Below the pieces are notes generated by a model. That model worked only from the letters and a program-made list of their open reading frames with translations. It did no database searches and was not told where the DNA came from. A program made the position numbers and the translations under genes. Below, piece by piece: positions 1,535 to 35,892 of a stretch of DNA of 64,000 nt; positions within the stretch are counted from its first letter, which is position 1, and every line of letters starts with the position of its first letter. Source of the stretch: Chloroflexia bacterium (GTDB lineage: Bacteria; Chloroflexota; Chloroflexia; QHBQ01; JADMIH01); assembly GCA_036386675.1 (NCBI GenBank), contig DASVVE010000016.1, forward strand, positions 122,561 through 186,560, written 5' to 3'.

Positions 1535-1978
1535 ATGGCAACTCAAAATATGACCCTGGACAGGCAGACATACTCAATAGCGGATATATTCAAGGCGGCT
1601 CTGGTGGCGGTGGCGGCCGGTTCGGTGGCAAACATAGTGTTGTGGCTGCTGGCGGTTGGGGTGGGGCTGGTGCCCGGCGACTTCTGGGTGTTGCAGCCGG
1701 TCTCAATCATCACCTCGACGCTGGCATTCACTTTGGTTGGTGCGGTCGTGCTAGCGGTGCTGACACGGGTCAGCCGCAACCCGATGCGCACCTGGCGGGT
1801 AGTAGCGGTAGTGGGGCTGGTCCTATCCTTCTCCAAACCCTTCATGCTTCTCACAGGCAGCATGAAGGGCTTCCCGGTGCCTACCGCCTCGACTGTGGCG
1901 GTCATGCTCCTCATGCACACGATAGCGGGGATTTCGGCTATCTACTTCATGACCACCATGCCGAAGCCACGAAGCTAG
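1535..1978 (+). CDS. Small integral membrane protein (~147 aa, 4 predicted TM), unknown function
   Basis: ATG at 1535 preceded by aaggagaac. Hydrophobic segments ALVAVAAGSVANIVLWLLAVGVGLV and AFTLVGAVVLAVL. Shares the reading frame with the spurious longer ORF 1004-1978. Confidence 0.5.
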   Translation: MATQNMTLDRQTYSIADIFKAALVAVAAGSVANIVLWLLAVGVGLVPGDFWVLQPVSIITSTLAFTLVGAVVLAVLTRVSRNPMRTWRVVAVVGLVLSFSKPFMLLTGSMKGFPVPTASTVAVMLLMHTIAGISAIYFMTTMPKPRS

Positions 1979-2313
1979 GTCTTGGGGTCGTAACACCACA
2001 CAGATACGAAGCTGGCGAATTGCACCGCAGAGACGCAGAGAGCCTGCCCTGAGCGTAGCCGAAGCGCCGCGGAGATTACGCAGAGGAGAATTGTGGGGGT
2101 TCTTTGTAAGGGCAGCATCGTGCAGTACGATGCTGCCCTCGTTCACATCCAAACAACCCCCATCTCAGCGTACCCTTTGCGCTCTCTGCGTCTCTGCGGT
2201 GAATAATCTATTCCAGTGTGTCCATGCCAACCTATTAGATTTGCTGACACGTGTTGGCCCAGCATGTATAATAGGGCGGCATGCAGGGTACGTACTAATG
2301 GAGGCTTGAACCC

Positions 2314-2829
2314 TTGGACGTCGCTTCAGTTGTGATACGTGAAGCCCGCATCTCAGACGCCGCCGGGTGCATCACTTTCTTGCGCGAGATTACTTCCGAG
2401 CCTGACATCATGATCCCCGGCTACCCTGACGATTGGGACTTTCCGGTGCAGGATGAAGAGGCTTTTATCCAGGACATGGTGGCTACGCCCAATTGCCTGA
2501 TGCTGGTCGTGGAAGCCGAGGGGAGGATAATGGGCATCCTGACCTGTCACGGCGGCAAGCGGCGCGCTATGCAACATGCAGTGATGCTGGGTGTCTCGCT
2601 ACACAAGGACTACCGCGACCGTGGACTGGGCCACCAATTGATGCAACGAGCCATAGATTGGGCCAGGGCTACCGGCATCACACGTATCGAGCTATTTGTC
2701 TATGTAGAAAACGCAAAGGGCATCCACCTGTATGAGAAGTTCGGCTTCAAGATCGAGGGCCGCCGCACCCGCGCCTACTACCACCATGGCAGGTATATAG
2801 ACGACCTAATTATGGCGCTGTTGCTTTAG
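2314..2829 (+). CDS. GNAT-family N-acetyltransferase
   Basis: 171 aa with acetyl-CoA binding-like motifs (HQLMQRAIDWARATGITRIELFV...NAKGIHLYEKFGF). TTG start; an alternative GTG lies ~18 nt downstream. Confidence 0.75.
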   Translation: MDVASVVIREARISDAAGCITFLREITSEPDIMIPGYPDDWDFPVQDEEAFIQDMVATPNCLMLVVEAEGRIMGILTCHGGKRRAMQHAVMLGVSLHKDYRDRGLGHQLMQRAIDWARATGITRIELFVYVENAKGIHLYEKFGFKIEGRRTRAYYHHGRYIDDLIMALLL

Positions 2830-2978
2830 ACGATGGACGATAGACGATGGACTATGGCAGACGAAAACGCAAAGACGCAAAGAACTCAAAGGACGCGCAA
2901 AGTAGATTACTGTTGGGAAGGGTGCTGACCTCTACTCAGTCCTCAGTCCTGTCGTCCATCGTCCATCGTCCATCGTCC
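2829..2978. repeat. Modular palindromic tandem-repeat element (copy E1): [GACGATrGAC]n-[ACGCAAAG]n-conserved core-[CAGTCCT]n-[GTCCATCGTC]n
   Basis: gacgatggacgatagacgatggac...cgcaaagacgcaaag...tagattactgttgggaagggtgctgacctctactcagtcctcagtcct...gtcgtccatcgtccatcgtccatcgtcc. Lies between the GNAT stop and the plsX RBS. Confidence 0.85.
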
Positions 2979-2996
2979 CCAAAGGAGACTTACTAG

Positions 2997-3998
2997 ATGA
3001 GAATTGCCCTGGATGCAATGGGGGGCGACCACGCCCCGCTTGAGACAGTGAAGGGAGCCATCGAGGCGGCGCGGGAGTACGGCATCGAGGTGGTGCTGGT
3101 GGGGCAGGAGGCTGCTATCCAGGCTGAGCTTGCTAAGGGCGGTACGTCGGGTCTCAAGCTCACGATTGAGCCTGCCGCCTCCGTCATCCCGATGGACGAG
3201 CACCAGCCCTCTACGGCGTGGCGGCGGCAGCGCGATTCGTCCCTCACCGTCGGCTTGCAGTTGCTGGCCGACCGCAAGGTGGACGCGTTCGTGTCGGCGG
3301 GCAACACCGGCGCTGTGGTGTCAGGTGGGACGTTCGTGCTGCGGCGCATCGAGGGCATAGACCGCCCTGCATTGGGGGTGCCGTTCCCCGCGATGGGTAA
3401 CATAGGCAAAATATTCCTCGTAGACGTGGGGGCCACACCTGACGCCAAGGCTCACTACCTGCTACAGTGGGCGCGTCTCGCTTCAATCTACATGGAGCGC
3501 GTGTACGACGTGAAGAACCCGCGCGTGGGCCTTGTATCTAACGGTGAGGAGGAGATCAAAGGCTCGGAGCTGGTGCGCGAGACGTTTCCGCTGTTGCAGA
3601 ATAGCGGCCTCAACTTCGTGGGCAATGTGGAGGGCAAGGACGTGCCCAACGGCGTGGCCGACGTGGTGGTGACCGATGGCTTCACCGGCAACGTGCTCCT
3701 TAAGACCACTGAGGGTGTCGCCAAGATGATCTTCGACCTGCTCCGCGCCGAACTGACTTCCAGCATGGTGAGCAAGCTGTTCGCCGCCGCCCTGCGCCCC
3801 AACTTCCGCCGTATAGCCGCCCGCCTGGACTACGCTGAATATGGCGGCTCAATAGTGATGGGTGTGGACGGTCTGCTCATCAAGCCGCACGGCCGCTCCA
3901 ACGCCAAGGCGATCAAGAACGCCATCCGGGTAGCCAAGAGCGGGGTCGAGCAGGATGTGATGAGCATCTTCCGCCAGGTGGGGGCGGCTGGACAATAG
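2997..3998 (+). CDS. plsX: Phosphate acyltransferase PlsX
   Basis: MRIALDAMGGDHAP... N-terminus and PlsX-typical GNTGA and FTGNV regions. RBS aaaggagac upstream. Confidence 0.9.
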   Translation: MRIALDAMGGDHAPLETVKGAIEAAREYGIEVVLVGQEAAIQAELAKGGTSGLKLTIEPAASVIPMDEHQPSTAWRRQRDSSLTVGLQLLADRKVDAFVSAGNTGAVVSGGTFVLRRIEGIDRPALGVPFPAMGNIGKIFLVDVGATPDAKAHYLLQWARLASIYMERVYDVKNPRVGLVSNGEEEIKGSELVRETFPLLQNSGLNFVGNVEGKDVPNGVADVVVTDGFTGNVLLKTTEGVAKMIFDLLRAELTSSMVSKLFAAALRPNFRRIAARLDYAEYGGSIVMGVDGLLIKPHGRSNAKAIKNAIRVAKSGVEQDVMSIFRQVGAAGQ

Positions 3999-4194
3999 AC
4001 GATGGACGATGGACGATAGTAGGAGAGACGGAACCGCCAAGACGCCAAGGACGCCAAGGACGCCAAGAACCCGCCAAGGTTTAGAATTGTTGTTGCGAAG
4101 AGTGCTAACAGCTACTCAGTCCTCCTCACTCCTCACTCCTCACTCCTCACTCCTATCGTCCATCGTCCATCGTCCATCGTCCATCGTCCATCGT
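3999..4194. repeat. Modular palindromic tandem-repeat element (copy E2), same family as E1
   Basis: (gacgatggac)x3 - (gacgccaagg)x4 - tttagaattgttgttgcgaagagtgctaacagctactcagtcctc - (ctcactcct)x4 - (atcgtccatc)x4. Sits between convergent plsX and the methyltransferase gene. Confidence 0.85.
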
Positions 4195-25036: not shown

Positions 25037-27979
25037 CTAACTCGGACCCAGAGTGGGTATAGTTGCGGGAAGAGTCTTGATTAGCTCAACAATGGCTTCC
25101 TGGGCCTGCCCTGAAAGCAGTTGTTGACCTACGGTGATTAACACGATAGCCAGCGGAGACAGATAGCCTAAGATGAAGCGTGCATCTCGTAGCGGGTAGA
25201 AATCAAAAATGTGTCGCCAGTAGTAGCCCTTCTCCCGGACGGTTGTAACGTCCATGAGCACTCCCAGTGCTACCAAAAATACCACTAATTCTAAAGTGCG
25301 GAAGAACCAACTGGTGCTCAGTGCTTGCCCGGTCCATGCATGGATTAAGGCATCGAAGCCCAAGGATAACCCATAAACACCTGCCAGGGCCACACCCTTA
25401 AGTGCACCATTGTTCCACGGCAGGTAAGTCGGCAAGTACGCATACAGACACCCCATGATGAATGCGGCAACTAGCCAGAAAGCTATCTCGTCGAGCACCC
25501 CCCTGGCAATCTGGAACACTGCCATAGTGGATGATGAGAATGCTTCTACTCCGCCCTGAGTGAGAAGTACATAGATGTAAAAGACAATAGGGAACAGGGC
25601 AAGCTTCCAACCGATAGTTACTGCTAGTTGTCCATTCTCCCACCAAGTGTTCCTAGGCCCCAATGCTAAACCGAGCCTATGTGGTGACAAACGCGACGGT
25701 GCCATGTGCGGTAAACGCAGCCATCTCGTCCTTCTGGTCGTGCCCCGTCGCAATGCCTCAATTTCCTGTTCTATAGCTTGATACTCCCGGCTGCTCTCAC
25801 CTGCATCCTTCTTGCCTTCCGAGAATTCCTTGTATTGAGTCGCCTCCTTGTTTTCCAGCCCTCTAATTGCTTTTGCCCGTTCGAGAAATTCGCTAACGAG
25901 GGCGGCACGTCTCGCGAACAGGTCTTCCTGCGTCAAACCAGGATTATGCGCAAGAATGCTGGAAATAACCCTTTCGACAGCCCTGAAGCGCCTCGTAAAA
26001 AGCTTGTTCATCAAGAAGAGAGCTGCGATGAAAGCAAGTGGGACCCCAAAGCCAAATAGTTGGCCGTCGGTGCCCACCACGAACGTGGCAAATAGGAGTG
26101 CCATTGAAGCCAAAGCCCAGCGGTCAGCGCTAAAAAGTAGGACGTTTGGAGACTGCGAAGCCTGGATATACAGCACGCGTAACAAGCCGAACAATGCTAT
26201 GTATGGTAAGAAGGCTATTAATTGAGCAAAAAGACTGAAGGGGTAACTTCCAAGTGAGGCAATTACCGACTCGAACCACTCTGAAGATCCAAAAGTGGAG
26301 GTATTGAATACAGTTTCCGGTGCGCTCCAGATCTTACTTCTTCTATATTCAAGTCTCACCCACTGTGCGAACGTGAGGAGCGCAAGCAAGGCAGGAATGG
26401 CGTTGAGCCACCACTGGTACCTGGCTCCGCGCGCCGGGTCGATCTTGATTACCTTCGCTGCGACTGGGTGCGGAGCGAGTGCGATGGCAAAGCGCACCAG
26501 TCCAGCCAACACGAAATACACCAGGCACAAGAATACCAGGCCGACGAGTAGCAACCACCACGGCTGATCGAACCATTCCCACAACTTATTGTCATTCGGT
26601 GCAGAGCTTGACATAAAATAGGCTATGGAACTGAACGCCGAGGGTAGGTTCAGCACTGTTAAGCTCGCCAAAGTAGTAAGTCCAATCAACAAGCGGTAGA
26701 CAAGTGGTAGCTTTCGGTTAATTTTCCGCCAGAATAGGACAGAGGCTAATGAGAAGAAAAAAGCAGAGGTAAGCAACAAAATTGAGTTCTTGAAGCCGAG
26801 GAGGAGGACCGAATTTCTGACTGTCTCATCGTAAAACCCGGAACCAGGAGCGCTGCTAGAGATGATAAGCGGATAAGCGAATATCCATAATCCATAATAT
26901 AGGAGTCCTTCCGCCGGTAGCAGCATTAGGACCAAAAGCATCCAACGTAGTGATTTTCTTGCAGGTGTCACTACATCTCTTGTGTTCTTTTTCTTCTCGG
27001 CTCCCTTTGCCGCCAGGATTCTAAACGTAGAAAAGAGAATGACGGTAGGTATAGCATAGCTTACGAGTAGGTGCAGAAAGGACCACATCGATTGATCAAC
27101 AAGAGAGCGTAGCACTGTCAGGGACAAATCAGAGGTAAGATGGCCCCGCACAGTCACATCCTGGTCAATGGCATTTTCTGACAGGTTCCAACTCACACTA
27201 CCTTGTTCGTTCAATATTGATGGTGACGGGCTTGCAGAGATGACTCTCATCCCTATCAGTTGCATGTCAATGATCCAGGTTGTCGGCGTCAGCCACTCGG
27301 CGGTTGTGAGTGCATCCCTGCCGCTTATCTCGAAAAATACCTCTGATTCAGAGGAGCTAATGTACCATGGCATTATTGTGCGAGGGTAGGAATAGAGCGC
27401 ATTAGTATTGGTGATAGTCACAGTAGCGACGTTCTGGTCTACTGATATGACAGGCGGCGCAATGCGGCTGAAGCTCTCGTGCCAGGACCCAGGCAATATG
27501 TCTTTCAAAGCCGCAAGGTAGTTCTCATCGTTCCGAGTGTGCCGTAGTAAGGTAGCTACTTCGGGACGGCTCGCGGGGAGGCTGATTGAAAAAGTACTGG
27601 TGACGATAGGGTAGGTAGCGGTGGTTGCGTCAACATCGAGTCGTGTTGTCACAGTTATTGGAGCGGGTGGGGAAGGCGGCGTAGCTACCGTATCGCTCGC
27701 ACCCTCGGGAAGTATAGTGATAGTGAGGGGTGACTGTAGAGTAAGAGTTAATACGGCAGAGACGGCTTCCGCCGGCAGGAGAGATGTTCCTGGCATGCGT
27801 CCAACACCGGGCTCACTATGTAGAGCAGCATTACCAAGCTTTACGTAACTTGACTGCGAAGCCAAATAAGCTGTTGCTCTGGCGGATGTGGTAGTTACAG
27901 TTGAGGCAGCCAAACCAAGGAGTAACAACAATCCGCCGAGTAGCCATATGCTGCGTGGTTGAATTGAGAAGTGTGACAT
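25037..27979 (-). CDS. Large polytopic membrane protein (~980 aa) with a ~330-aa N-terminal extracytoplasmic domain, unknown function
   Basis: Start MSHFSIQPRSIWLLGG... at 27979, preceded by GGAGG. Signal/anchor, then ~18 hydrophobic segments. Visibly lower GC than the flanks. Confidence 0.6.
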   Translation of the reverse strand: MSHFSIQPRSIWLLGGLLLLLGLAASTVTTTSARATAYLASQSSYVKLGNAALHSEPGVGRMPGTSLLPAEAVSAVLTLTLQSPLTITILPEGASDTVATPPSPPAPITVTTRLDVDATTATYPIVTSTFSISLPASRPEVATLLRHTRNDENYLAALKDILPGSWHESFSRIAPPVISVDQNVATVTITNTNALYSYPRTIMPWYISSSESEVFFEISGRDALTTAEWLTPTTWIIDMQLIGMRVISASPSPSILNEQGSVSWNLSENAIDQDVTVRGHLTSDLSLTVLRSLVDQSMWSFLHLLVSYAIPTVILFSTFRILAAKGAEKKKNTRDVVTPARKSLRWMLLVLMLLPAEGLLYYGLWIFAYPLIISSSAPGSGFYDETVRNSVLLLGFKNSILLLTSAFFFSLASVLFWRKINRKLPLVYRLLIGLTTLASLTVLNLPSAFSSIAYFMSSSAPNDNKLWEWFDQPWWLLLVGLVFLCLVYFVLAGLVRFAIALAPHPVAAKVIKIDPARGARYQWWLNAIPALLALLTFAQWVRLEYRRSKIWSAPETVFNTSTFGSSEWFESVIASLGSYPFSLFAQLIAFLPYIALFGLLRVLYIQASQSPNVLLFSADRWALASMALLFATFVVGTDGQLFGFGVPLAFIAALFLMNKLFTRRFRAVERVISSILAHNPGLTQEDLFARRAALVSEFLERAKAIRGLENKEATQYKEFSEGKKDAGESSREYQAIEQEIEALRRGTTRRTRWLRLPHMAPSRLSPHRLGLALGPRNTWWENGQLAVTIGWKLALFPIVFYIYVLLTQGGVEAFSSSTMAVFQIARGVLDEIAFWLVAAFIMGCLYAYLPTYLPWNNGALKGVALAGVYGLSLGFDALIHAWTGQALSTSWFFRTLELVVFLVALGVLMDVTTVREKGYYWRHIFDFYPLRDARFILGYLSPLAIVLITVGQQLLSGQAQEAIVELIKTLPATIPTLGPS

Positions 27980-28180
27980 AACTCGACTACCTCCACTATG
28001 GGAAAGTTCGCTACCATCAGGTGCCCGACATCCCTGCATGTGTCTCACAACGTCCTATATTGTACACAGAACTCATCAAATTTCCATGCAGGGTGAGAGG
28101 TATCCGTAGATGCTGCTAAGGACACGTATCGTGGCGGCATGTGTCCTTAGCAGCATCGCACATGTCGGATGTAATTAAGG

Positions 28181-28343
28181 ATGCAACTACAGGTCAAAAC
28201 TTGCCCATGTTTGCAGTGAAACTTTGCAACTGCCTGTGGAGAAAGTCTGCAACTACCCTCAATTTAGCAAACAAAGTATGCAACTGGCCTCGTACTCCTG
28301 TGCTGCGACGTCGGCCACAGAGTCGCAAATCTCTGCAACTAGC
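28181..28343. promoter_or_regulatory. Array of five direct repeats TGCAACT(A/G)(C/G)C in the upstream region of the large membrane-protein gene
   Basis: Copies at 28181, 28224, 28247, 28278 and 28333. A further copy plus its inverted partner at 28381/28431 form a hairpin. Confidence 0.35.
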
Positions 28344-28380
28344 CTAACCCTCTCTCCTCACAAACTGGTGTAGCTAAACA

Positions 28381-28441
28381 TTGCAACCAGCCTACAGGAC
28401 TCTGAGTTGTTTCTCAAGTCAGAGTCCTGTAGGCTGGTTGC
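28381..28441. terminator. 24-bp perfect inverted repeat hairpin downstream of the lipoprotein gene
   Basis: tgcaaccagcctacaggactctga-gttgtttctcaag-tcagagtcctgtaggctggttgca. Confidence 0.45.
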
Positions 28442-28526
28442 ACTGGGTGTCCGTCCCGAATTGTGGAGCAAAGCTAGACCGATACCACGTGGGGAGCGAG
28501 TAGGCTGTTACGTGCTAGAGATCCAA

Positions 28527-29651
28527 TTATTTATCTGCGCAACTCGCAGTTCCCCAGGATTCGAGTGATAGACTGGTTGGCGGGAACGACTCGTATGCAG
28601 CAACCCTCGTCCAAGCAAAGCCTGAGATATGATACCTTAGACCTTTACCCTGACCTGTCGCTCTGTCCCAGAGGGGTACAGGGACTATGAAACCACTCGT
28701 CTGTAAGAAGTCAAGGGTGCTCCTGGTCTCCGGACTTGTGCCGATGTTCTCGATTGTCTGTAGCCAGTCTCCTACAGATGCCCTATGGTCGTTGGCATCC
28801 TCTGAGTTGGCGTAATTTACGTTCTCGCCGGGCGTTGGTAAGGCAGAAGCTCTACCCGGACTGCCTGTGCCGGAACTGAATGCTAACCATCTGAAGCCCC
28901 GGGCACCCGCAGTATCTAGACTCACCTTGTTCTTGTCGTGGCGACTTTTCGATCCTTTGAAGCTGTCGGCGTGAACTGCCAGAGGATACACCTTACAGGG
29001 GGTGTTGGTCTCCCACTGTCTTGTTTGTAGGTTGTAAGCAATCATAGAGGTGGAACCGTCTTTCTGGGGAGCGATCAGAATAACGCGAGGCAAGTCTATG
29101 TATGCGATGTCCAGGGCGCCTTGCTTCTGTGGCGAGGTATACAGGATAACGTCACTTAGGTCCCGGCCTTCGAGTGTGGTCGTAAAAACCTGAACCGCAC
29201 CCTGTAGCGGATCATCACTTAGCACTCCGGCGTTCAGATACGCATATTCGTTACCCAACTTACCTCCCCAACAGGAAGTCACATGAAAAGTCCTGCTACC
29301 CCCTCCGCACGTTCCCAAACCGGGTTCAGGCGTGTCTTGCGGCTCAGGAGTGGCCGGAGGAGGTAGTGTCGGCATGGGTGCCTTGTTCTCAGCGACCCTG
29401 GTCTTCGCTGCGTCTCGCTTCGCTTGATCCATATCCAGGAAGGCTTGTTTTGTAGCCTCTACTTCCGCACGCGTCGGCGTATGAGTCTGGGAGGCGGCGA
29501 CTGTCTGATTCGGCACGCTGAGGGCATTGCCGGAGTCGTTCTGCGTGTCGTCGTTGTTACCGTTACATCCTGCGATGAGCAACAGGCTCACTAGTAGAGC
29601 AGGTCCCAGTACCCTTATGGCTGTGGTCCGTCTCTTGGTACTCACTTTCAC
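28527..29651 (-). CDS. Lipoprotein (lipobox LIAGC), unknown function
   Basis: N-terminus MKVSTKRRTTAIRVLGPALLVSLLLIAGCNG with a Pro/Thr-rich linker. 374 aa. Confidence 0.65.
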   Translation of the reverse strand: MKVSTKRRTTAIRVLGPALLVSLLLIAGCNGNNDDTQNDSGNALSVPNQTVAASQTHTPTRAEVEATKQAFLDMDQAKRDAAKTRVAENKAPMPTLPPPATPEPQDTPEPGLGTCGGGSRTFHVTSCWGGKLGNEYAYLNAGVLSDDPLQGAVQVFTTTLEGRDLSDVILYTSPQKQGALDIAYIDLPRVILIAPQKDGSTSMIAYNLQTRQWETNTPCKVYPLAVHADSFKGSKSRHDKNKVSLDTAGARGFRWLAFSSGTGSPGRASALPTPGENVNYANSEDANDHRASVGDWLQTIENIGTSPETRSTLDFLQTSGFIVPVPLWDRATGQGKGLRYHISGFAWTRVAAYESFPPTSLSLESWGTASCADK

Positions 29652-29740
29652 TTTGTTCCTCCTGACCCTGGCTTGCTACAAAAGTATGCCCAACCGTACA
29701 CAGTTGATCGCTGGAGTGGTACAAACCTGAGCATACAGGC

Positions 29741-32700
29741 TTATGGATAAATAATGTCGGTTACTCCATATTGCAAAATTGACTGAGGTTCAAGTAAAGG
29801 GTTAGGCACCTTCTGGGGTGCAGTAGGAGATCCAGTTAGGGGAGCATGAGGCGAGCTAAGCATATCTGTCAATGCTTGCCATGCTCGATGAGGTGGTAAG
29901 TAGGGACAGCCAGCACCTCCTGCCGCGCCGCTAGTGCAGGAGTAGGGTTGCCAATTACCCGTGCAGTCGGCCCCGTCCTGGGTCGTACATTTGTCATTAA
30001 ACCGCTCGTTGAAGCGTGCCGGTGTACTTGTCATACGTGCGGCACATGTGCTGTTTACGGCACAGCCTGACATGGCTCCTAAGAAACGCATATTGCTGCC
30101 CTGGTGAACCTTGGCATACCATTTGACGTTGTACCATTCCCACATGTAGGGTGTGAGGTATATTTGTGGCAGCGGCCAGGCATTAACCAAACCATATGAC
30201 ACATAGTACACACGATTCAGTGCCTCGCTTACTAGAGGACTTTGCGCCCATGTTGTCGGGCTCCCGCCTCGGGGGCAGCCCTCACAACTACCAAAGTTGA
30301 ACGCCGCCACATCTGGAATTGAGGTAAAGCCTTCTGCCCAGTACTTGGTCCCAGACTTCGCCGAGTCGTTGATCCTGTATCTACTCCATCGATCTGGATC
30401 GGCTGTCACGTTGTCAGCATTCACATTGGGGCAGGGACCTCGTTCACCTAGCACGGTATCCCTACAGTCCAGGTCAGTGGATGCATAGTACTCAAAGTCA
30501 TAACCACCTGCAAAGCTGACAGCACCACTCAAATATGGGTCTGACGCAGCTTCCTGACGCAGAGCACTTACCATTCCGGCCCACGCCGCTCCATGGCTGT
30601 AATTCAGATCCATATTATCCTGCCAGATATGTGGGCCATCAGCCAGGTACGCGGTATTGCTAACGCCTAGAACGATCGTCAGGTCAGCCACCGTGTTAGG
30701 AGCCTGGCAGCCCTGTCCAAGCGTATAGCCTAGGGCGAACTCTCGCGCTATAGCCTGGACTTCAGCCAACGAAACTAACGTACGAACAACTATGAGTCGT
30801 GCTCCATATTCGACACCTGGTGGGGAACTTACGCTTTGGATATATGGCCCTCCAAAATCCAGCACTACCAGACCTGTCTCGCCTCTTTGCCGCGCTTCAC
30901 ACCCCAAGAGCCGTGCATCGGCAGGATCGGCACTCTGTATGTAATAACTTGTGGTATGTTTTGGAGGTGTCGGTAAGGCAAAGCCCTGGGCTGAAGATAC
31001 CGCCCACTGACCTGTACCTGACTGTGCAGTAGCTACAATTTGATACATCCGGTATGCTGAATCTCCCGGCAGCGTAACTGTGTTCCATCCGCCTGTCAGC
31101 GTAACGGCAGATGTAATCGTTTGGGCGTCAGACATACCGCAGATACCCCATTGGTCGCAACTAACCTGATTTCCAGCTCTAATGTCAATTGTAGTAGCGT
31201 AGTTGCCTTCCTGGTATAGCCTGATAGTACCAACATTCGTAGGTGTTGTCAGGTCAACACGCCAGTTGTCACTTCGTGCCCCCCATATTGTAGCTTCGTT
31301 GCCATCCGTGGCGTTACCGGCCATGTATGCACAGCCACCGAAACATTCGGCACCATCCCAGGCGCGCTTGCCCAGGAACACGTCATCGGGAGGTGGAGGA
31401 GGCGGAGGAGTACCCATGATCCCTTGTATGGTGTGTACTCTCCAGCCGTCCTGTATCCCAATATGTGCTGTTGCTACAATGCTATACATACGGTACGCTG
31501 CATCTCCGGGCAGAGCAATCTCGTTCCACCCATTTACCACAGCCACATTGGCCTTTATTGTTCGCGGATCGCTCGTATCACAAATGCCCCAGCCGTCGCA
31601 CCCTACGACAGTGCCTGCGACTATGTCAACAGCCGTAGCATAGTTTCCGTCCTGGAAGAACGTTATCTTTACGATCGGCACTTGCTGCCCAACATCTACA
31701 CGCCAACTGTTGCTTCTGGCTCCCCAGTACGTGGTGCTGTTGTTGTCTACGGCATTTCCTGCCATGTTGGCACAGCCGCCAAAGCACTCGTTTCCGTCCC
31801 ACGCCGGCTTGCCTAGGAAGACGTCCTCCCCGGCCGCCGGGGTGGCCGGAGTGCTGGAAGGAGTAGCCGTGTTTGTTGATGTGGGTGTCGAGGTAGGTGT
31901 CGAAGTGGATGTAGATGTTGCTGTGAATGTTGGCGTGGGAGTAGCTCCAGGAACACCGTTACAGATGTAGGCATCCTGCACCTTGCTGCCCGTGTTATAG
32001 AGCGAACTGTCCATGTATAGAGGAGCGGACGGCGCGGTTACGGTGCTCGTGTACACAGCTACACCGTTGCGGTAGTAGCGCACTAGCCCCGAGCTACCCA
32101 CTCCAATAGCCAGCTCGTCACCTACGTCGTACAAGCTCACCGCTCCTTTAGTGGTACCGCTCTCTGCAACCGTCAAGCCACTGGTGCCCGGGTCTATATA
32201 GAAGGCGTAGTCCAGGTTCTGCCAGGTAACGTTGTTGGAGGGGTCATCGGAGAGGCCAAACATCAATATGTCCTGCGTCGAGGCCACCGTGGCGCGCACG
32301 TATCCTGTGCTGCCGGGCTGCAGGGCCGCACTAGATATGGCACCCGCGTTCCAGCCCGTACCTCCCGCCGTCTTCGCCAGGGTATTGCCTGTGGGGGTGG
32401 CATTCTGCCCGCCGGTCCACGTTACCGGCTGGCAGTTGCTCGTAGATATAGGTTCAGTGAGGCTGGCACCGCAAAGAGATGCATCCTGCACCTTGCTGCC
32501 CGAAGTGTAAAGGGAGCTATCTAGGAACAGTGGGTACTTGGGCGCTACCGTGCTGGTGTAGAGTAGCTCACCGTTCTTGTAGTAGCGGACGATCTGTGTA
32601 TCGTCCACGGCCACTCGCAACGTGTCCCCGGCATCGTACAGCCCATATCCTCCCCTGTTGGTCCCCTTCTCCACGATCTGTAATTTGCCCGCGTACGGGT

Positions 32701-34150
32701 CTATGTAGAAAGCATAATCGATGCTCTGCCACTGCACGTCAATATCGGAATTGGACAGGCCAAACATGAGGATGTCGCCGGACGAAGCCACTGTCATCTG
32801 AACATAGCCACGCCCTGACAGGATGCCCTTCCTGGAGGCACCTCCTGCGTTCCAGGCGCTGCCCCCGCTTACCTTTGTGATCGTATTCCCTGCGGCCGAG
32901 ACGTTGCGCTTACCCGTCCACGCCCCGTCCAGGCTGTCGCATGGCGACTGAGGCAAAGCCGGGTGCGCGCTCGCCCCACAAATCTGAGCATTCTGTACCT
33001 TACCACCCACATTCCAGATGGAGCTATCCATATAAAGGGGGTAAGTGGGTGCCGCTGTGCTGGTGTAGACGAGCTGGTTATTGAGATAGTATCGCACTAC
33101 CCCCGCTTGGTCTACCGCGATAGTTAGTTCATCTCCCGCATCATACATGCTCCACAAGGCTTTGGTGTTGCCCTTCTCCTGGACTGATAGCACGCCTACG
33201 CCCGGGTCTATATAGAAGGCGTAGTCCAGACTGGTCCAGTTTACGTCGCTGTCCTGGTGGGAGAGGCCAAACATGAGGGTATCGATGCCTGAAGCTATGG
33301 TGGCTCGCACGTACCCGCTGTTGCCGGACTGTATAGCCTGGCTGGAAGCAGCCCCGGCGTTCCAGCCGCTGCCCCCGGCCGTCTTCTGAACAGTGTTGCC
33401 GGTGGACATAGCGTTGCGGGTGTGGACCCACGTCACCGCCTCACAGGTGGAGGTAGGCAGCGGCGCGGGCGCACTGCCCCCGCAAATCTGCGCGTTCTGC
33501 ACCTTGCCGCCCGAGTTCCAGATGGAGCTATCCATGTACAAAGGAAAGGTCGGGGCTACCAGGCTGGTGTAAAGGAGGTTGCCATTGCGATAGTAGCGTA
33601 CTGAAGTACCCTCTACAGCTACTCGCAGTACATCTCCGGCCGCGTATGCGCCGTAGCTGGCGAGGCCAGCTCCACGCTCTATTATCGTGAGACCCCCCGA
33701 GACTGCCGGGTCTATGTAGAACGCGTAGTCAAGAGACTGCCAATGTGCATCTTTATCAATGCGAGACAGCCCGAACATGAGCGTATGGCTGGTTGAAGCC
33801 ACCGTCGCTTCAACATGCCCGCTGCTTCCCGATTGGATGCCTACACTGGAAGCGGCACCTGCATTCCAGGCGCTACCGCCCGCTGTTTTCTCAATCGTGT
33901 TGCCGGTAGCAACCACGTTCCGCTTGTGGACCCATGTTACTGCCTGGCAGTCTTCCGGTCCGCTCATGAGGGCTGCCGCCGACGCAACGTCAACACCTGG
34001 GAAGGGGGTGAGGGTGACCGACTGTAGTGAGAGGGATGAAAGGGTGAGAAACAGGATCACCATGAAGACGATGCGAAGATACCAATGGGAAGAGCGTGGG
34101 CGGAACATGATGTGGGGGCATCCCTTCGCGTGTGAACGCATGTAGAACAC
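29741..34150 (-). CDS. Giant secreted multidomain protein (1469 aa): 5x LamG/ConA-like repeats, 2x discoidin (F5/8 type C)-like domains, and a ~500-aa Cys-containing C-terminal domain
   Basis: Five ~150-aa repeats with TGNTxxKTAGGxxWNAGAxS...MFGLS...DYAFYIDP...GDxLxVAV...RYYxNGxLxYTS. PT/S-rich and poly-Pro linkers. AWDGxECFGGCAxMAGNAxDxNxxTxWGARS discoidin-like modules. The start is uncertain among three Met codons (34150, 34141, 34108). Confidence 0.7.
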   Translation of the reverse strand: MFYMRSHAKGCPHIMFRPRSSHWYLRIVFMVILFLTLSSLSLQSVTLTPFPGVDVASAAALMSGPEDCQAVTWVHKRNVVATGNTIEKTAGGSAWNAGAASSVGIQSGSSGHVEATVASTSHTLMFGLSRIDKDAHWQSLDYAFYIDPAVSGGLTIIERGAGLASYGAYAAGDVLRVAVEGTSVRYYRNGNLLYTSLVAPTFPLYMDSSIWNSGGKVQNAQICGGSAPAPLPTSTCEAVTWVHTRNAMSTGNTVQKTAGGSGWNAGAASSQAIQSGNSGYVRATIASGIDTLMFGLSHQDSDVNWTSLDYAFYIDPGVGVLSVQEKGNTKALWSMYDAGDELTIAVDQAGVVRYYLNNQLVYTSTAAPTYPLYMDSSIWNVGGKVQNAQICGASAHPALPQSPCDSLDGAWTGKRNVSAAGNTITKVSGGSAWNAGGASRKGILSGRGYVQMTVASSGDILMFGLSNSDIDVQWQSIDYAFYIDPYAGKLQIVEKGTNRGGYGLYDAGDTLRVAVDDTQIVRYYKNGELLYTSTVAPKYPLFLDSSLYTSGSKVQDASLCGASLTEPISTSNCQPVTWTGGQNATPTGNTLAKTAGGTGWNAGAISSAALQPGSTGYVRATVASTQDILMFGLSDDPSNNVTWQNLDYAFYIDPGTSGLTVAESGTTKGAVSLYDVGDELAIGVGSSGLVRYYRNGVAVYTSTVTAPSAPLYMDSSLYNTGSKVQDAYICNGVPGATPTPTFTATSTSTSTPTSTPTSTNTATPSSTPATPAAGEDVFLGKPAWDGNECFGGCANMAGNAVDNNSTTYWGARSNSWRVDVGQQVPIVKITFFQDGNYATAVDIVAGTVVGCDGWGICDTSDPRTIKANVAVVNGWNEIALPGDAAYRMYSIVATAHIGIQDGWRVHTIQGIMGTPPPPPPPDDVFLGKRAWDGAECFGGCAYMAGNATDGNEATIWGARSDNWRVDLTTPTNVGTIRLYQEGNYATTIDIRAGNQVSCDQWGICGMSDAQTITSAVTLTGGWNTVTLPGDSAYRMYQIVATAQSGTGQWAVSSAQGFALPTPPKHTTSYYIQSADPADARLLGCEARQRGETGLVVLDFGGPYIQSVSSPPGVEYGARLIVVRTLVSLAEVQAIAREFALGYTLGQGCQAPNTVADLTIVLGVSNTAYLADGPHIWQDNMDLNYSHGAAWAGMVSALRQEAASDPYLSGAVSFAGGYDFEYYASTDLDCRDTVLGERGPCPNVNADNVTADPDRWSRYRINDSAKSGTKYWAEGFTSIPDVAAFNFGSCEGCPRGGSPTTWAQSPLVSEALNRVYYVSYGLVNAWPLPQIYLTPYMWEWYNVKWYAKVHQGSNMRFLGAMSGCAVNSTCAARMTSTPARFNERFNDKCTTQDGADCTGNWQPYSCTSGAAGGAGCPYLPPHRAWQALTDMLSSPHAPLTGSPTAPQKVPNPLLEPQSILQYGVTDIIYP

Positions 34151-34865
34151 CTGTCTATAGAGGATACTGCCTCAAGACCAGGTGCTCGCCTTTATTAGGT
34201 TGTAACAGCTTGCAGTAGGAATAGAGTTCCTACCGGAGTCCAACAGAACAGCAAACGTAGGGCGTGACAACGACGATAAATCTCCTGACTATAGAGGTCA
34301 AGAGACTGAACGGCCTTGGTAAACACGTAAGGTCGCTGCACACGCTACACGGCGATACAGAGCGCGCCCGTGTGCAATCAACGCGAAGTGACGGTTTGCG
34401 GTTTTTGGTGAGCTTAGTTTACGAAAGTCGACCTTTACAAACAAGCTAATTGACTACGTAGTTTAGCGTAACTATGGTCTTAAGCACGTGGCGATGGAAA
34501 TGGAGAGCGACCAATTACGGAATGTAGTGAGAAATGGCGGATTGGCAGACATAGTAACATGAATTACAAGCCACAACCCCACTCCCTGGTAGGTCAGCCC
34601 ACTCTATCGGAGATAGGGTGCGCGCAACGTTATTGGTGTTAATCATGATTGCTAAGATACGGGCGTCACACCTAAATCCTCCATCCATATGTGTTGCACT
34701 TGACTGGTTACCAACCTGTGACTACACACATCATGACGCGGCTGCATGTTAGGCCCGACACAAAGAACATGTAGCGGTGAAGATCAGCATTGTTGTAATG
34801 GACCACCCGCCACGGGTATAGATGGAAAAGAAAGGACATATGCGATATGACTAAAGTCGATACTA

Positions 34866-35766
34866 AGAGCGCCTTTCAAAACCTGGCCCGTGACTTGCGG
34901 TGGTAGTGGGCACTATGAGCAAGCCACTAGTACCAGACGAACTATGGGAGATTGTAGAGCCACTGTTGCCAGCTGAGCCACCTAAGCCAAAGGGAGGTCG
35001 TCCTCGCGGGCCGGGCCGAGCAGCCCTTGCAGGGCTCATCTTCGTGCTGCGAAGGGGCCTACCCTGGGAGATGCTACCCCAAGAGATGGGCTGTGGGAGT
35101 GGAGTAACCTGCTGGCGCAGATTGCGTGAGTGGCAGAAGAAGGGAGTGTGGCGCAAGCTGCACAGGGCGTTGCTCAACCGCCTGGGAGAAGCAGACAAGA
35201 TAGATTGGTCACGCGCCAGCCTGGACTCAGATACTGTTCCAGCTAAGGGTGTAAAAAGGGGGACCCGAAAGCTACGGCTGTTGGGCCGAACCCCACAGAT
35301 AAGGGCAACACCCAGAGGGTGCCCGGCACGAAGCGCCATGTTGTGGTCGAGCGGCAAGGCATACCGCTGGCCGTGAAACTCACCGGTGCCAACACCCACG
35401 ACTCGAAGGTGTTCGAGGAGATGGTGGACAGCATAGAACCTATCAAACGTCCACTCGGCAAGCCTGGCCGACCTCGCAAGCGCCCGGACAAGTTGCACGC
35501 TGACAAGGCGTATGACATATCCAGGTGCCGCAAGGCTCTTGCGAAGAGGGGCATCAAGTGTCGCATAGCGCGTAAAGGAGTAGAGAGCAGCCAGAAGCTG
35601 GACAGGCACAGGTGGGTGGTTGAGCGCACCCTCTCCTGGCTCGACCGTAAACGTCGGCTCACCATCCGCTACGAGCGTCGTGACGATATTCACCTGGCGT
35701 TCCTGCATCTTGGTTGTGTCCTCATCTGCCTCAATCACCTGTTATGATGGTTTTGAAGGGCGCTCT
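34866..35766 (+). mobile_element. IS5-family (IS427-group-like) insertion sequence, ~900 bp, with 18-bp imperfect terminal IRs
   Basis: IRL agagcgcctttcaaaacc (34866-34883) matches IRR ggttttgaagggcgctct (35749-35766) with one mismatch. Encloses orfA/orfB. Confidence 0.85.
34900..35747 (+). CDS. IS5/IS427-type transposase orfAB, produced by a -1 programmed frameshift at A AAA AGG (35253-35259)
   Basis: orfA 34900-35376 (frame 1) and orfB 35319-35747 (frame 3). The -1 fusion reads ...GVKKGDPKATAVGPNPTDKGNTQRVPGTKRHVVVERQGIPLAVKLTGANTHDS, the typical IS5 DDE transposase context. Confidence 0.8.
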
Positions 35767-35892
35767 AAGCACATCGCACTTGGCCAGTTGCAGACTTTTG
35801 CTTCACCTCAGTTGCAAGGCTTGTCACACTATAGTTGCAAACTTTATGGGATCCGACAGTGCAGTAGGAGATCCTCGCCTATCGTCCATTGT

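What the first reader, a model, noticed from the sequence alone, without database searches (positions are those of the whole stretch)
29741..34150. Giant secreted protein: 5x LamG/ConA-like repeats + 2x discoidin-like domains + unknown C-terminal domain
Five consecutive ~150-aa repeats carry the pattern TGNTxxKTAGGxxWNAGAxS…GYVxATxAS…MFGLS…DYAFYIDP…GDxLxVAV…RYYxNGxLxYTS…PLYMDSSxxxxGxKVQxAxxCG, which is LamG_3/ConA-like. Two AWDGxECFGGCAxMAGNAxDGNxxTxWGARS modules are discoidin-like. Linkers are PT/S-rich or poly-Pro. The ~500-aa C-terminus has many Cys and Trp and no obvious family. It is probably a carbohydrate-binding adhesin and a candidate for a novel surface system with the neighbouring membrane protein and lipoprotein.
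Basis: partly seen in the sequence, partly recalled or inferred. Interest (0 to 1): 0.6.

Follow-up and report, generated by a model that had tools for sequence, protein, structure and literature searches.

The report
Secreted modular enzyme plus lipoprotein partner
This is a real 1,469-residue secreted bacterial protein that joins four SPRY-like and two discoidin-like binding modules to an undescribed TIM-barrel (probably sugar-cleaving) domain found so far only in Chloroflexota, a domain whose gene is nearly always followed by the gene for a small membrane-anchored protein like the one just downstream here.

Summary
The ORF (29741..34150, minus strand) is real, but the count and sizes were off. 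It has four 168-aa repeats, not five of about 150. It has two discoidin-like modules, and a 406-aa C-terminal domain, not about 500.

The repeats match no Pfam or NCBIfam model, Laminin_G_3 included. A high-confidence model (pLDDT 95.5) places them nearest SPRY/B30.2 within the ConA-like fold. They belong to a large uncurated family: 3,799 clusters, up to 25 copies per protein.

The C-terminal domain folds as a TIM barrel. It has a near-invariant Asp-x-Glu right after strand 4 and many conserved Trp/Tyr. Its family is small and has no Pfam or PDB sequence relative. All 28 genomic hits are in Chloroflexota.

In about 49 of 60 loci its gene is followed immediately by, or fused to, a homologue of the downstream lipoprotein gene (28527..29651). 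The DUF6185 membrane protein is never a neighbour.

The most likely reading is a modular secreted glycan hydrolase that works with a membrane-tethered partner, not a plain adhesin. Catalysis and substrate are inferred. The block has atypical GC3 and an IS5 element beside it. The closest relative lacks the SPRY-like repeats, so this gene is a chimera.

The parts
33950..34150 (-). N-terminal region, aa 1-67. Basic n-region plus a hydrophobic stretch, so a probable signal peptide or signal anchor. The likely true start is the ATG at 34108 (M15).
   Evidence: Translation; upstream sequence; sequence inspection only, no predictor run.
33446..33949 (-). SPRY-like (ConA-fold) repeat 1, aa 68-235
   Evidence: HMM domain E 9e-94; alignment A1.
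32942..33445 (-). SPRY-like repeat 2, aa 236-403. This is the unit that was modelled.
32435..32941 (-). SPRY-like repeat 3, aa 404-572
   Evidence: HMM domain E 4e-93.
31928..32434 (-). SPRY-like repeat 4, aa 573-741
   Evidence: HMM domain E 1e-88; weak Pfam Neuralized match at aa 589-724, 21 bits.
31826..31927 (-). Pro/Thr/Ser-rich linker, aa 742-775
   Evidence: Translation.
31406..31825 (-). Discoidin-like (F5/8 type C, galactose-binding-domain-like) module 1, aa 776-915
   Evidence: Pfam F5_F8_type_C and F5_F8_type_C_2 at threshold, with 2 stretches in the whole protein; as a single module E 0.011.
30971..31405 (-). Poly-Pro linker (aa 916-922) plus discoidin-like module 2 (aa 924-1060)
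   Evidence: Best Pfam stretch at aa 944-1046; 57% identical to module 1; weak PDB match to the Sm-hPAF lectin domain, E 0.026.
29744..30961 (-). C-terminal TIM-barrel domain, aa 1064-1469. New Chloroflexota-restricted family. It carries two Cys-rich insertions (domain residues about 158-202 and 299-356) that the distant standalone members lack or have much shorter.
30491..30499 (-). Candidate catalytic motif D1218-F-E1220 (D155-x-E157 of the domain), immediately after predicted strand 4
   Evidence: Invariant in 17/17 sequences. Glu in 45/45 and Asp in 44/45 aligned rows. Strand at domain residues 148-154. Numbering checked.
28527..29651 (-). Partner gene, 374 aa. It has a lipobox (LIAGC), a linker, a conserved roughly 95-aa beta-rich domain (aa about 125-218), and a clade-specific C-terminal extension (aa about 220-374). 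A strong AGGAGG lies 6 nt before the GTG start, 89 nt after the stop of the big gene.
   Evidence: 56%, 47% and 34% identical full-length homologues lie directly downstream of the TIM gene in L032, L033 and L034. HMM hits directly downstream or fused in about 49 of 60 loci. Fusions in P0166 and L006. Shine-Dalgarno sequence.

Best explanation
The gene encodes a secreted, modular extracellular enzyme, not a pure adhesin. After export, six beta-sandwich modules (four SPRY-like ConA-fold repeats and two discoidin-like modules, joined by PT and poly-Pro linkers) bind a surface or polymer ligand. That positions a C-terminal TIM-barrel catalytic domain.

The barrel belongs to an undescribed family seen only in Chloroflexota. 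It carries a near-invariant Asp-x-Glu just after strand 4 and a belt of conserved Trp/Tyr. From general knowledge, this is the arrangement used by GH18, GH25 and GH56 enzymes that cleave N-acetylhexosamine-containing glycans with substrate assistance. I therefore infer a glycoside hydrolase acting on an envelope-type glycan (peptidoglycan-like, chitin-like or a Chloroflexota wall polysaccharide).

The enzyme works as a two-component unit with the product of the next gene. That product is a lipobox- or TM-anchored protein whose conserved beta domain probably binds the barrel and tethers or regulates it at the membrane surface.

Shown: the domain anatomy, the folds, the family distribution, the gene-pair conservation and fusions, and the chimeric origin. 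Inferred: catalysis, the type of substrate, and the partner's role.
For: Anatomy and repeat count.

SPRY-like fold: (pLDDT 95.5).

The SPRY-like repeat family is extracellular and sits on other secreted binding or lytic proteins. Examples are Peptidase_M23 in Sorangium, a T9SS sorting domain in Flavobacteriales, and discoidin, BACON, PKD and CHB_HEX_C domains.

Discoidin modules.

Conserved D-x-E, D1465 and aromatic residues.

The family exists mostly as standalone secreted proteins of about 370-430 aa, or with other extracellular modules such as CARDB, DUF11 or DUF4114.

All 28 genome hits are Chloroflexota, each from a different genome record.

The partner gene lies directly downstream, often overlapping the stop codon, or is fused, in about 49 of 60 loci. 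The fusions are P0166 and L006.

Against: The barrel model is only moderate (mean pLDDT 61, 7-sequence alignment), and its two Cys-rich insertions are unmodelled.

No Pfam glycoside hydrolase model matches any of 17 members at E<=10. No PDB sequence matches.

Strand 1 lacks the Asp seen in GH25. Strand 7 lacks the Glu nucleophile of clan GH-A.

SPRY domains are classically protein-binding modules, so the ligand need not be a carbohydrate.

The partner's role (tether, activator or inhibitor) cannot be told apart by sequence.
Confidence: 0.5

Rival explanations
1. Non-catalytic carbohydrate-binding adhesin or surface protein. All modules, including the C-terminal one, only bind ligands, and the protein mediates attachment.
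For: Six lectin-fold modules separated by flexible linkers. The repeat family occurs in giant multi-repeat surface proteins with up to 25 copies. No catalytic family is assigned by sequence.
Against: The C-terminal domain is a TIM barrel with a near-invariant D-x-E at the usual catalytic position. Most members of its family are small standalone secreted proteins with no binding repeats, which is not what an adhesin stalk looks like. The closest relative (L032) has only one discoidin module and the barrel, so the barrel plus partner is the core and the repeats are add-ons.
Confidence: 0.12
2. Antibacterial lytic effector with a cognate immunity lipoprotein. The TIM barrel degrades the wall of competitors, and the downstream membrane-anchored protein protects the producer.
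For: Tight enzyme-then-small-membrane-protein gene order, often with overlapping stop and start codons. Atypical GC3 of the block and an adjacent IS5 element in this window. The SPRY-like repeats are fused to an M23 peptidoglycan peptidase in predatory Sorangium. L034 is flanked by an integrase and a Tn3 transposase.
Against: Enzyme and partner domain are fused in one polypeptide in two lineages, which is unusual for a toxin-immunity pair. Each of the 28 hits comes from a different genome record, and the neighbourhood is conserved across Anaerolineae, which looks like vertically inherited housekeeping. No secretion-system or polymorphic-toxin genes lie nearby. No match to known lysozyme-inhibitor families.
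Confidence: 0.15
3. Nutritional polysaccharide-degrading enzyme. This would be a CAZyme-type exoenzyme with CBM-like modules that harvests an environmental glycan rather than acting on the cell's own envelope.
For: The architecture (binding modules, linkers, TIM barrel) is typical of secreted CAZymes. The discoidin modules are the fold of CBM32. CBM66 is among the structural neighbours of the repeats. Relatives carry the NPCBM_assoc and CARDB modules common in glycosidases.
Against: There are no sugar-uptake or catabolic genes next to the pair in this window. The flanking genes are OGG, thymidine kinase, DUF711, rhodanese and an oligopeptide-type ABC transporter. The strictly conserved membrane-anchored partner and the restriction to one phylum fit an envelope-associated role better.
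Confidence: 0.18

Closest known systems
SPRY/B30.2 domains and the Neuralized homology repeat (ConA-like lectin/glucanase fold)
   Different: Sequence identity is 10-18%. No SPRY or PRY Pfam hit is reported. These repeats are extracellular, tandem, bacterial and bracketed by a Cys pair (C1 and C156 of each unit). Classical SPRY domains are intracellular protein-interaction modules.
Laminin_G_3 / LamG and lectin-type CBMs (CBM66, L-type lectins)
   Different: There is no HMM match to Laminin_G_3 or any lectin family. They rank below the SPRY domains structurally. No sugar- or Ca-binding residues could be checked.
F5/8 type C (discoidin) / CBM32 / NedA-like galactose-binding domains
   Same: Pfam F5_F8_type_C_2 scores 31.7 bits (cut-off 27.8) and F5_F8_type_C scores 28.2 (cut-off 28.2), across two modules. 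As in many bacterial glycosidases, they are attached to an enzyme-like domain.
   Different: The scores are marginal. The modules have extra Cys residues (CFGGC, GCDGWGIC). The ligand is unknown.
TIM-barrel glycoside hydrolases with a D-x-E or D-E pair after strand 4 (GH18 chitinases, GH25 muramidases, GH56 hyaluronidases, GH20). The motif knowledge is from memory.
   Same: A (beta/alpha)8-type barrel with a near-invariant Asp-x-Glu just after strand 4, and many conserved aromatic residues. The protein is secreted and disulfide-rich.
Cell-wall hydrolases controlled or tethered by a membrane or lipoprotein partner (for example amidase-NlpD/EnvC, FtsEX-PcsB; general knowledge)
   Same: An extracellular hydrolase-like enzyme is encoded with a membrane-anchored partner. 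The two are co-oriented and often translationally coupled.
   Different: Neither protein is homologous to those systems. The interaction and the regulation are inferred only.

Membership tests
Laminin_G_3 / LamG (Pfam PF13385) | Significant match to the family HMM | tested here: not met
   No hit for the whole protein at E<=1, for a single repeat at E<=10, or for 42 family members at E<=1.
ConA-like lectin/glucanase superfold | Curved two-sheet beta-sandwich (jelly roll) that superposes on known members | tested here: met
SPRY/B30.2 (Pfam PF00622) | Match to the SPRY HMM | tested here: not met
   No SPRY hit. Only sub-threshold Neuralized (21 bits against a 23.3 cut-off). P0013 reaches 35.7 summed bits.
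SPRY/B30.2 | Closest structural neighbours are SPRY domains | tested here: met
F5/8 type C (discoidin) domain | Score at or above the Pfam gathering threshold | tested here: met
   PF22633 scores 31.7 against 27.8. PF00754 scores 28.2 against 28.2, exactly at the cut-off. Both have two stretches. A single module alone gives only E 0.011.
F5/8 type C (discoidin) domain | Ligand-binding loops and demonstrated sugar or lipid binding | not testable with these tools
TIM (beta/alpha)8 barrel | Alternating beta/alpha topology that superposes on known barrels | tested here: met
Glycoside hydrolase (any CAZy family: GH18, GH20, GH25, GH56, clan GH-A) | Sequence membership in a curated GH family | tested here: not met
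   No GH Pfam model matches any of 17 members at E<=10. No PDB sequence match.
Glycoside hydrolase (substrate-assisted D-x-E type) | Conserved acidic pair at the C-terminal end of strand 4 | tested here: met
   D155-x-E157 follows the strand at residues 148-154. It is invariant in 17/17 sequences. Asp is present in 44/45 and Glu in 45/45 aligned rows.
Glycoside hydrolase | Hydrolytic activity on a glycan | not testable with these tools
   This needs biochemistry.
Clan GH-A (4/7 superfamily) | Asn-Glu acid/base after strand 4 and a Glu nucleophile after strand 7 | tested here: not met
   Strand 7 (M-x-F-x-G-V/A-M/T-T/S) has no conserved Glu. Strand 4 ends in D-x-E, not N-E.
Bacterial lipoprotein (partner gene) | Signal peptide ending in a lipobox [LVI][ASTVI][GAS]C | tested here: met
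   The window partner has ...SLLLIAGC. L032 has LLIGC, L034 LLASC, L004 LITGC and L001 LVSC. Most Anaerolineae homologues have a TM anchor without Cys instead.
DUF6185 as part of the system | Conserved co-occurrence with the TIM-barrel and partner genes | tested here: not met
   No DUF6185 homologue in any of the 60 related loci. No close DUF6185 relatives were retrievable from the metagenome scan.

The most novel reading that the evidence does not exclude
The TIM-barrel domain and its membrane-anchored partner form a Chloroflexota-specific two-component envelope glycan hydrolase. This would be a new glycoside hydrolase family with an obligate tethering or regulatory subunit. It could act in septum, sheath or wall-polysaccharide remodelling of these unusual, mostly filamentous bacteria. 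The window shows the first case where that enzyme has been re-targeted by capturing four copies of a widespread, uncurated bacterial SPRY-like extracellular repeat.
Probability: 0.3. Interest if true: 0.65.

Novelty: new variant of a known kind. Interest (0 to 1): 0.45.

Why it matters
Three uncurated protein families come out of one gene pair.

(1) An extracellular bacterial SPRY-like repeat. It has about 3,800 clusters at 50% identity, up to 25 copies per protein, and is spread over Chloroflexota, Bacteroidota, Myxococcota and Acidobacteriota. No Pfam or NCBIfam model covers it. SPRY is usually regarded as a eukaryotic intracellular protein-recognition module.

(2) A TIM-barrel family restricted to one phylum, with a catalytic-looking D-x-E. 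If it is active, it would be a new glycoside hydrolase family.

(3) Its conserved membrane-anchored partner.

The Chloroflexota envelope is poorly understood, so a phylum-specific wall-active enzyme pair would be a useful handle. Cultured hosts that carry the barrel gene exist (Thermanaerothrix daxensis and T. solaris). In those species the downstream gene is the alternative 320-aa protein, not this partner. None of this changes a paradigm. It is a well-defined target for annotation and biochemistry.

Tried and rejected
- NCBIfam on the three proteins gave nothing relevant.
- A word-index protein search with one repeat found nothing, which is a sensitivity limit of that tool. The full HMMER scan was needed.
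- Profile searches of the TIM family (A2, A5) and the partner family (A6) against PDB sequences gave only chance-level hits.
- Pfam on all members of the TIM family and the partner family gave no family for the core domains.
- The afdb50 fold library was unavailable. AlphaFold-DB relatives of the barrel could therefore not be checked.
- The repeat profile hit PDB 26gp_Q 'Structural protein' (E 1.8e-6). I could not identify that entry: no paper mentions it, and it was not among the best 50 to 60 matches listed by either fold search.
- tblastn of a repeat against 50,697 phage records gave no match. PHROGs gave nothing significant.
- Literature searches for bacterial SPRY repeats found nothing pertinent.
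- I looked for a fifth repeat and there is none.
- I looked for other conserved neighbours of the TIM/partner pair. I found only lineage-level synteny (a roughly 447-aa ORF cluster shared by 14 loci that is probably histidinol dehydrogenase but was not annotated, and GGDEF and GAF sensor genes), which is not informative.
- A metagenome scan for DUF6185 relatives found none.
- Rfam and tRNA scans of the window were empty.
- The promoter and terminator scan did not exceed shuffled expectation.
- I rejected the 291-aa ORF at 34863..35738 (-) as a gene. It is the antisense shadow of an IS5 transposase.


Full report
**Observation**

The window has a 1469-codon ORF at 29741..34150 on the minus strand. 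GNTxxKxxGGxxWNAG is at aa 83, 251, 421 and 588. DYAFYIDP and KVQ[ND]A also occur four times each. An HMM built from the repeats, and a broader one built from 42 family members, both find exactly four units even with all filters off. The units are aa 68-235, 236-403, 404-572 and 573-741, with E 1e-58 to 1e-97. They are 168-169 aa long and 56-65% identical to the first. Each begins and ends with an invariant Cys.

A PT-rich linker (aa 742-775) follows. Then come two AWDGxECFGGCA modules (aa 776-915 and 924-1060, 57% identical), separated by PPPPPPP. Last is a 406-aa C-terminal domain (aa 1064-1469) with 12 Cys and 11 Trp. The N-terminus reads as a signal peptide or anchor. The most plausible start is the ATG at 34108. 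This comes from reading the sequence, not from a predictor.

**The repeats**

No Pfam model matches a repeat unit at E<=10, and none matches any of 42 diverse relatives at E<=1. NCBIfam gives nothing either. The LamG_3 assignment therefore fails its own test.

The repeat is not an orphan. A full HMMER scan of 1.84 billion representatives finds 3,799 proteins at E<=1e-3, of which 442 are at E<=1e-30. Some carry up to 25 copies in one 6,469-aa protein. Ten members scanned against Pfam show no model over the repeat.

Source names and Pfam hits on relatives place the family in the following settings:
- Chloroflexota, Acidobacteriota and Flavobacteriales (the last with a T9SS sorting domain).
- A deltaproteobacterial MAG.
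- Sorangium, where it is fused to a Peptidase_M23 domain.
- Alongside discoidin, BACON, PKD, RCC1-like, CHB_HEX_C and MBG modules.

The only recurring sequence signal is the Neuralized homology repeat, itself SPRY-like. It scores 21 bits here and 35.7 summed bits in P0013. The repeat profile also matches a 620-aa 'Structural protein' in PDB 26gp (E 1.8e-6), which I could not identify.

Conclusion: these are ConA-fold modules of the SPRY branch, and the family is large, extracellular and uncurated.

**The discoidin-like modules**

Pfam F5_F8_type_C_2 scores 31.7 bits against a 27.8 cut-off. F5_F8_type_C scores 28.2, exactly its cut-off. Each has two stretches. A lone module gives only E 0.011 and a weak PDB match to the Sm-hPAF lectin domain. 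The assignment is acceptable but marginal.

**The C-terminal domain**

It has no Pfam, NCBIfam or PDB sequence match. A search of 5.8 billion proteins returns 6 relatives with the single sequence and 19 with a profile. All are 'hypothetical' and none has a precomputed Pfam domain over this region. A scan of one genome per species (185,579 species) finds 28 loci. Every one is in Chloroflexota, mostly Anaerolineae (Thermanaerothrix, Bellilinea, Longilinea, Anaerolinea) with some Chloroflexia-like MAGs. Each hit comes from a different genome record. A metagenome scan adds 26 loci.

Most members are standalone secreted proteins of about 370-430 aa. Some carry CARDB, DUF11, NPCBM_assoc or DUF4114 modules.

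Across 17 full-length members, the invariant residues of note are Y1070, L-G-C 1082-1084, D1218, E1220, W1271, W1339, W1424 and D1465 (domain numbering Y7, LGC19-21, D155, E157, W208, W276, W361, D402). In a wider set, Glu is present in 45/45 and Asp in 44/45 aligned rows. D-x-E sits immediately after predicted strand 4 (residues 148-154).

From general knowledge, an acidic D-x-E or D-E pair after strand 4, together with an aromatic-lined cleft, is the signature of GH18, GH25, GH56 and GH20 enzymes that cleave N-acetylhexosamine glycans. This is a lead, not a membership. The family lacks GH18's DxxDxD, GH25's strand-1 Asp and clan GH-A's strand-7 Glu.

**The neighbour that matters**

The downstream gene (28527..29651, 374 aa) starts 89 nt after the big gene's stop, behind a strong AGGAGG, and has a lipobox (LIAGC). 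It has no Pfam, NCBIfam or PDB relative.

Its central domain of roughly 95 aa is 33% identical (E 6e-14) to the product of the gene directly after the TIM-barrel gene of Chloroflexi bacterium AL-N10. It also matches the C-terminal extension of P0166, where it is fused to the barrel (E 5e-8).

An iterated HMM finds it as follows:
- Among L001-L031 it is immediately downstream, often overlapping the stop codon, in 21 loci, and fused in L006.
- It is immediately downstream in all three closest relatives: L032 at 56% identity over the full length, L033 at 47% and L034 at 34%.
- It is immediately downstream in 24 of 26 metagenome loci.

That makes about 49 of 60 loci, with some redundancy among them.

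The exceptions fall into three groups:
- Contigs that end at the barrel gene (L024, L044).
- L007.
- The Thermanaerothrix clade, where a different 320-aa secreted protein takes that position.

Homologues have either a lipobox or a TM anchor, then a helical or Pro-rich linker, then the conserved beta domain. The window clade adds an extension of about 150 aa.

The DUF6185 membrane protein (25037..28048, Pfam E 4.6e-36) has no homologue in any of the 60 loci. The conserved unit is therefore the barrel plus the partner, not a three-gene system.

**Origin of this particular gene**

The closest relative (L032, 75-81% identical over the second discoidin module and the barrel, aa 897-1469) has one discoidin module and no SPRY-like repeats. 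Its gene lies right after a mandelate-racemase-like gene. None of the 60 loci, and none of the 19 database proteins, has SPRY-like repeats on the barrel.

In the window, flanking housekeeping genes have GC3 of 0.76-0.83. DUF6185 has 0.53, the partner 0.56, the discoidin modules 0.48-0.57, the barrel 0.49 and the SPRY-like repeats 0.63-0.71. An IS5-family element with 21-nt terminal inverted repeats sits 700 nt upstream.

The simplest reading is that a laterally acquired discoidin-barrel-partner block gained a repeat array of different origin, which produced a chimeric, re-targeted enzyme. This is inference.

**Mechanism proposed**

- Export by the N-terminal signal.
- The six beta-sandwich modules bind a polymer or surface ligand. 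Carbohydrate is likely from the company these modules keep, but it is unproven, and SPRY domains often bind proteins.
- The TIM barrel cleaves a glycan using D1218 and E1220.
- The lipoprotein's beta domain binds the barrel and tethers or regulates it at the membrane.

Domain anatomy, folds, distribution, synteny and fusions are shown. Catalysis, substrate and the partner's role are inferred.

The rivals are a non-catalytic adhesin, an effector-immunity pair and a nutritional exo-enzyme. The fusions and the neighbourhood conserved across Anaerolineae argue against immunity. The standalone barrel homologues argue against an adhesin.

**Verdict**

It is a new variant of a known kind, a modular secreted TIM-barrel enzyme, built from three uncurated families. 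It is of moderate interest and gives clear experimental targets.

Noticed in passing
window 34863..35769 (+): IS5-family insertion sequence, 907 bp, with 21-nt terminal inverted repeats (34863-34883 and 35749-35769). It has two overlapping + strand ORFs: 34900..35376 (DUF4096, E 1.5e-24) and 35319..35747 (DDE_Tnp_1, E 5.7e-17). That layout suggests a frameshifted transposase. The 291-aa ORF 34863..35738 (-) is its antisense shadow.
   Followed up: yes
window 25037..34150: Compositional island. GC3 is 0.53 (DUF6185), 0.56 (partner) and 0.59 (big gene), against 0.76-0.83 in flanking housekeeping genes. Inside the big gene the SPRY-like repeats (0.63-0.71) differ from the discoidin and TIM parts (0.48-0.57), which suggests a chimeric origin.
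   Followed up: partly
window 25037..28048 (-): 1003-aa multi-pass membrane protein of family DUF6185 (Pfam E 4.6e-36). It lies 478 nt downstream of the partner gene and has the same low GC3, but it is not found next to any relative of the pair. No close relatives were found in the metagenome scan. Function unknown.
   Followed up: partly
L002, L012, L014, L016, L019 (Thermanaerothrix clade), gene just downstream of the TIM-barrel gene, e.g. L016:11050-12009: In this clade the usual partner is replaced by a different secreted protein of about 320 aa. It has repeated YGYPITGEF...QYFQRARFE motifs, which from memory resemble LGFP-type cell-wall repeats, and an Ig-like tail. It has no Pfam hit.
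   Followed up: partly
PDB 26gp chain Q (also 26la, 44nx), residues 107-197: A 620-aa 'Structural protein' matches the SPRY-like repeat profile, including the GWNAG motif (E 1.8e-6). The entry could not be identified in the literature and was not among the best matches listed by either fold search. It may be the first solved member of this repeat family.
   Followed up: partly
P0036 (Sorangium sp., 1257 aa), P0012 (Flavobacteriales), P0041 (Chloroflexia): The same SPRY-like repeat is fused to a Peptidase_M23 peptidoglycan endopeptidase in Sorangium. It is also fused to a T9SS type A sorting domain in Flavobacteriales and to three strong discoidin domains in a Chloroflexia MAG. This hints that it serves as a targeting module for secreted lytic or binding proteins.
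   Followed up: partly
alignment A5, just N-terminal of the TIM domain in standalone members (e.g. P0006 aa 46-56): A short conserved (L/I)-P-(V/L/Q)-I-(Y/F)-like motif (RLFLPVIY, TIYLPLVM, AWLPQIY) lies between the signal anchor and the barrel in most standalone homologues. It may be a processing or sorting signal. The window protein lacks it.
   Followed up: no
window partner aa ~220-374 (28527..~28990) and homologues in L004, L032-L034: Clade-specific C-terminal extension of the partner protein. Its conserved motifs are PGE-x-V-x-Y-x-N, DH-x3-VGDW, VP(L/V)WD-x-A-x-GQG and YH(I/V)SGFAW, with a terminal Cys. It has no family match.
   Followed up: no
L032:1957-4028: In the closest relative the discoidin-TIM gene is split over three reading frames (1957-3078, 2921-3115, 3102-4028). 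This is either assembly frameshifts or a pseudogene.
   Followed up: no
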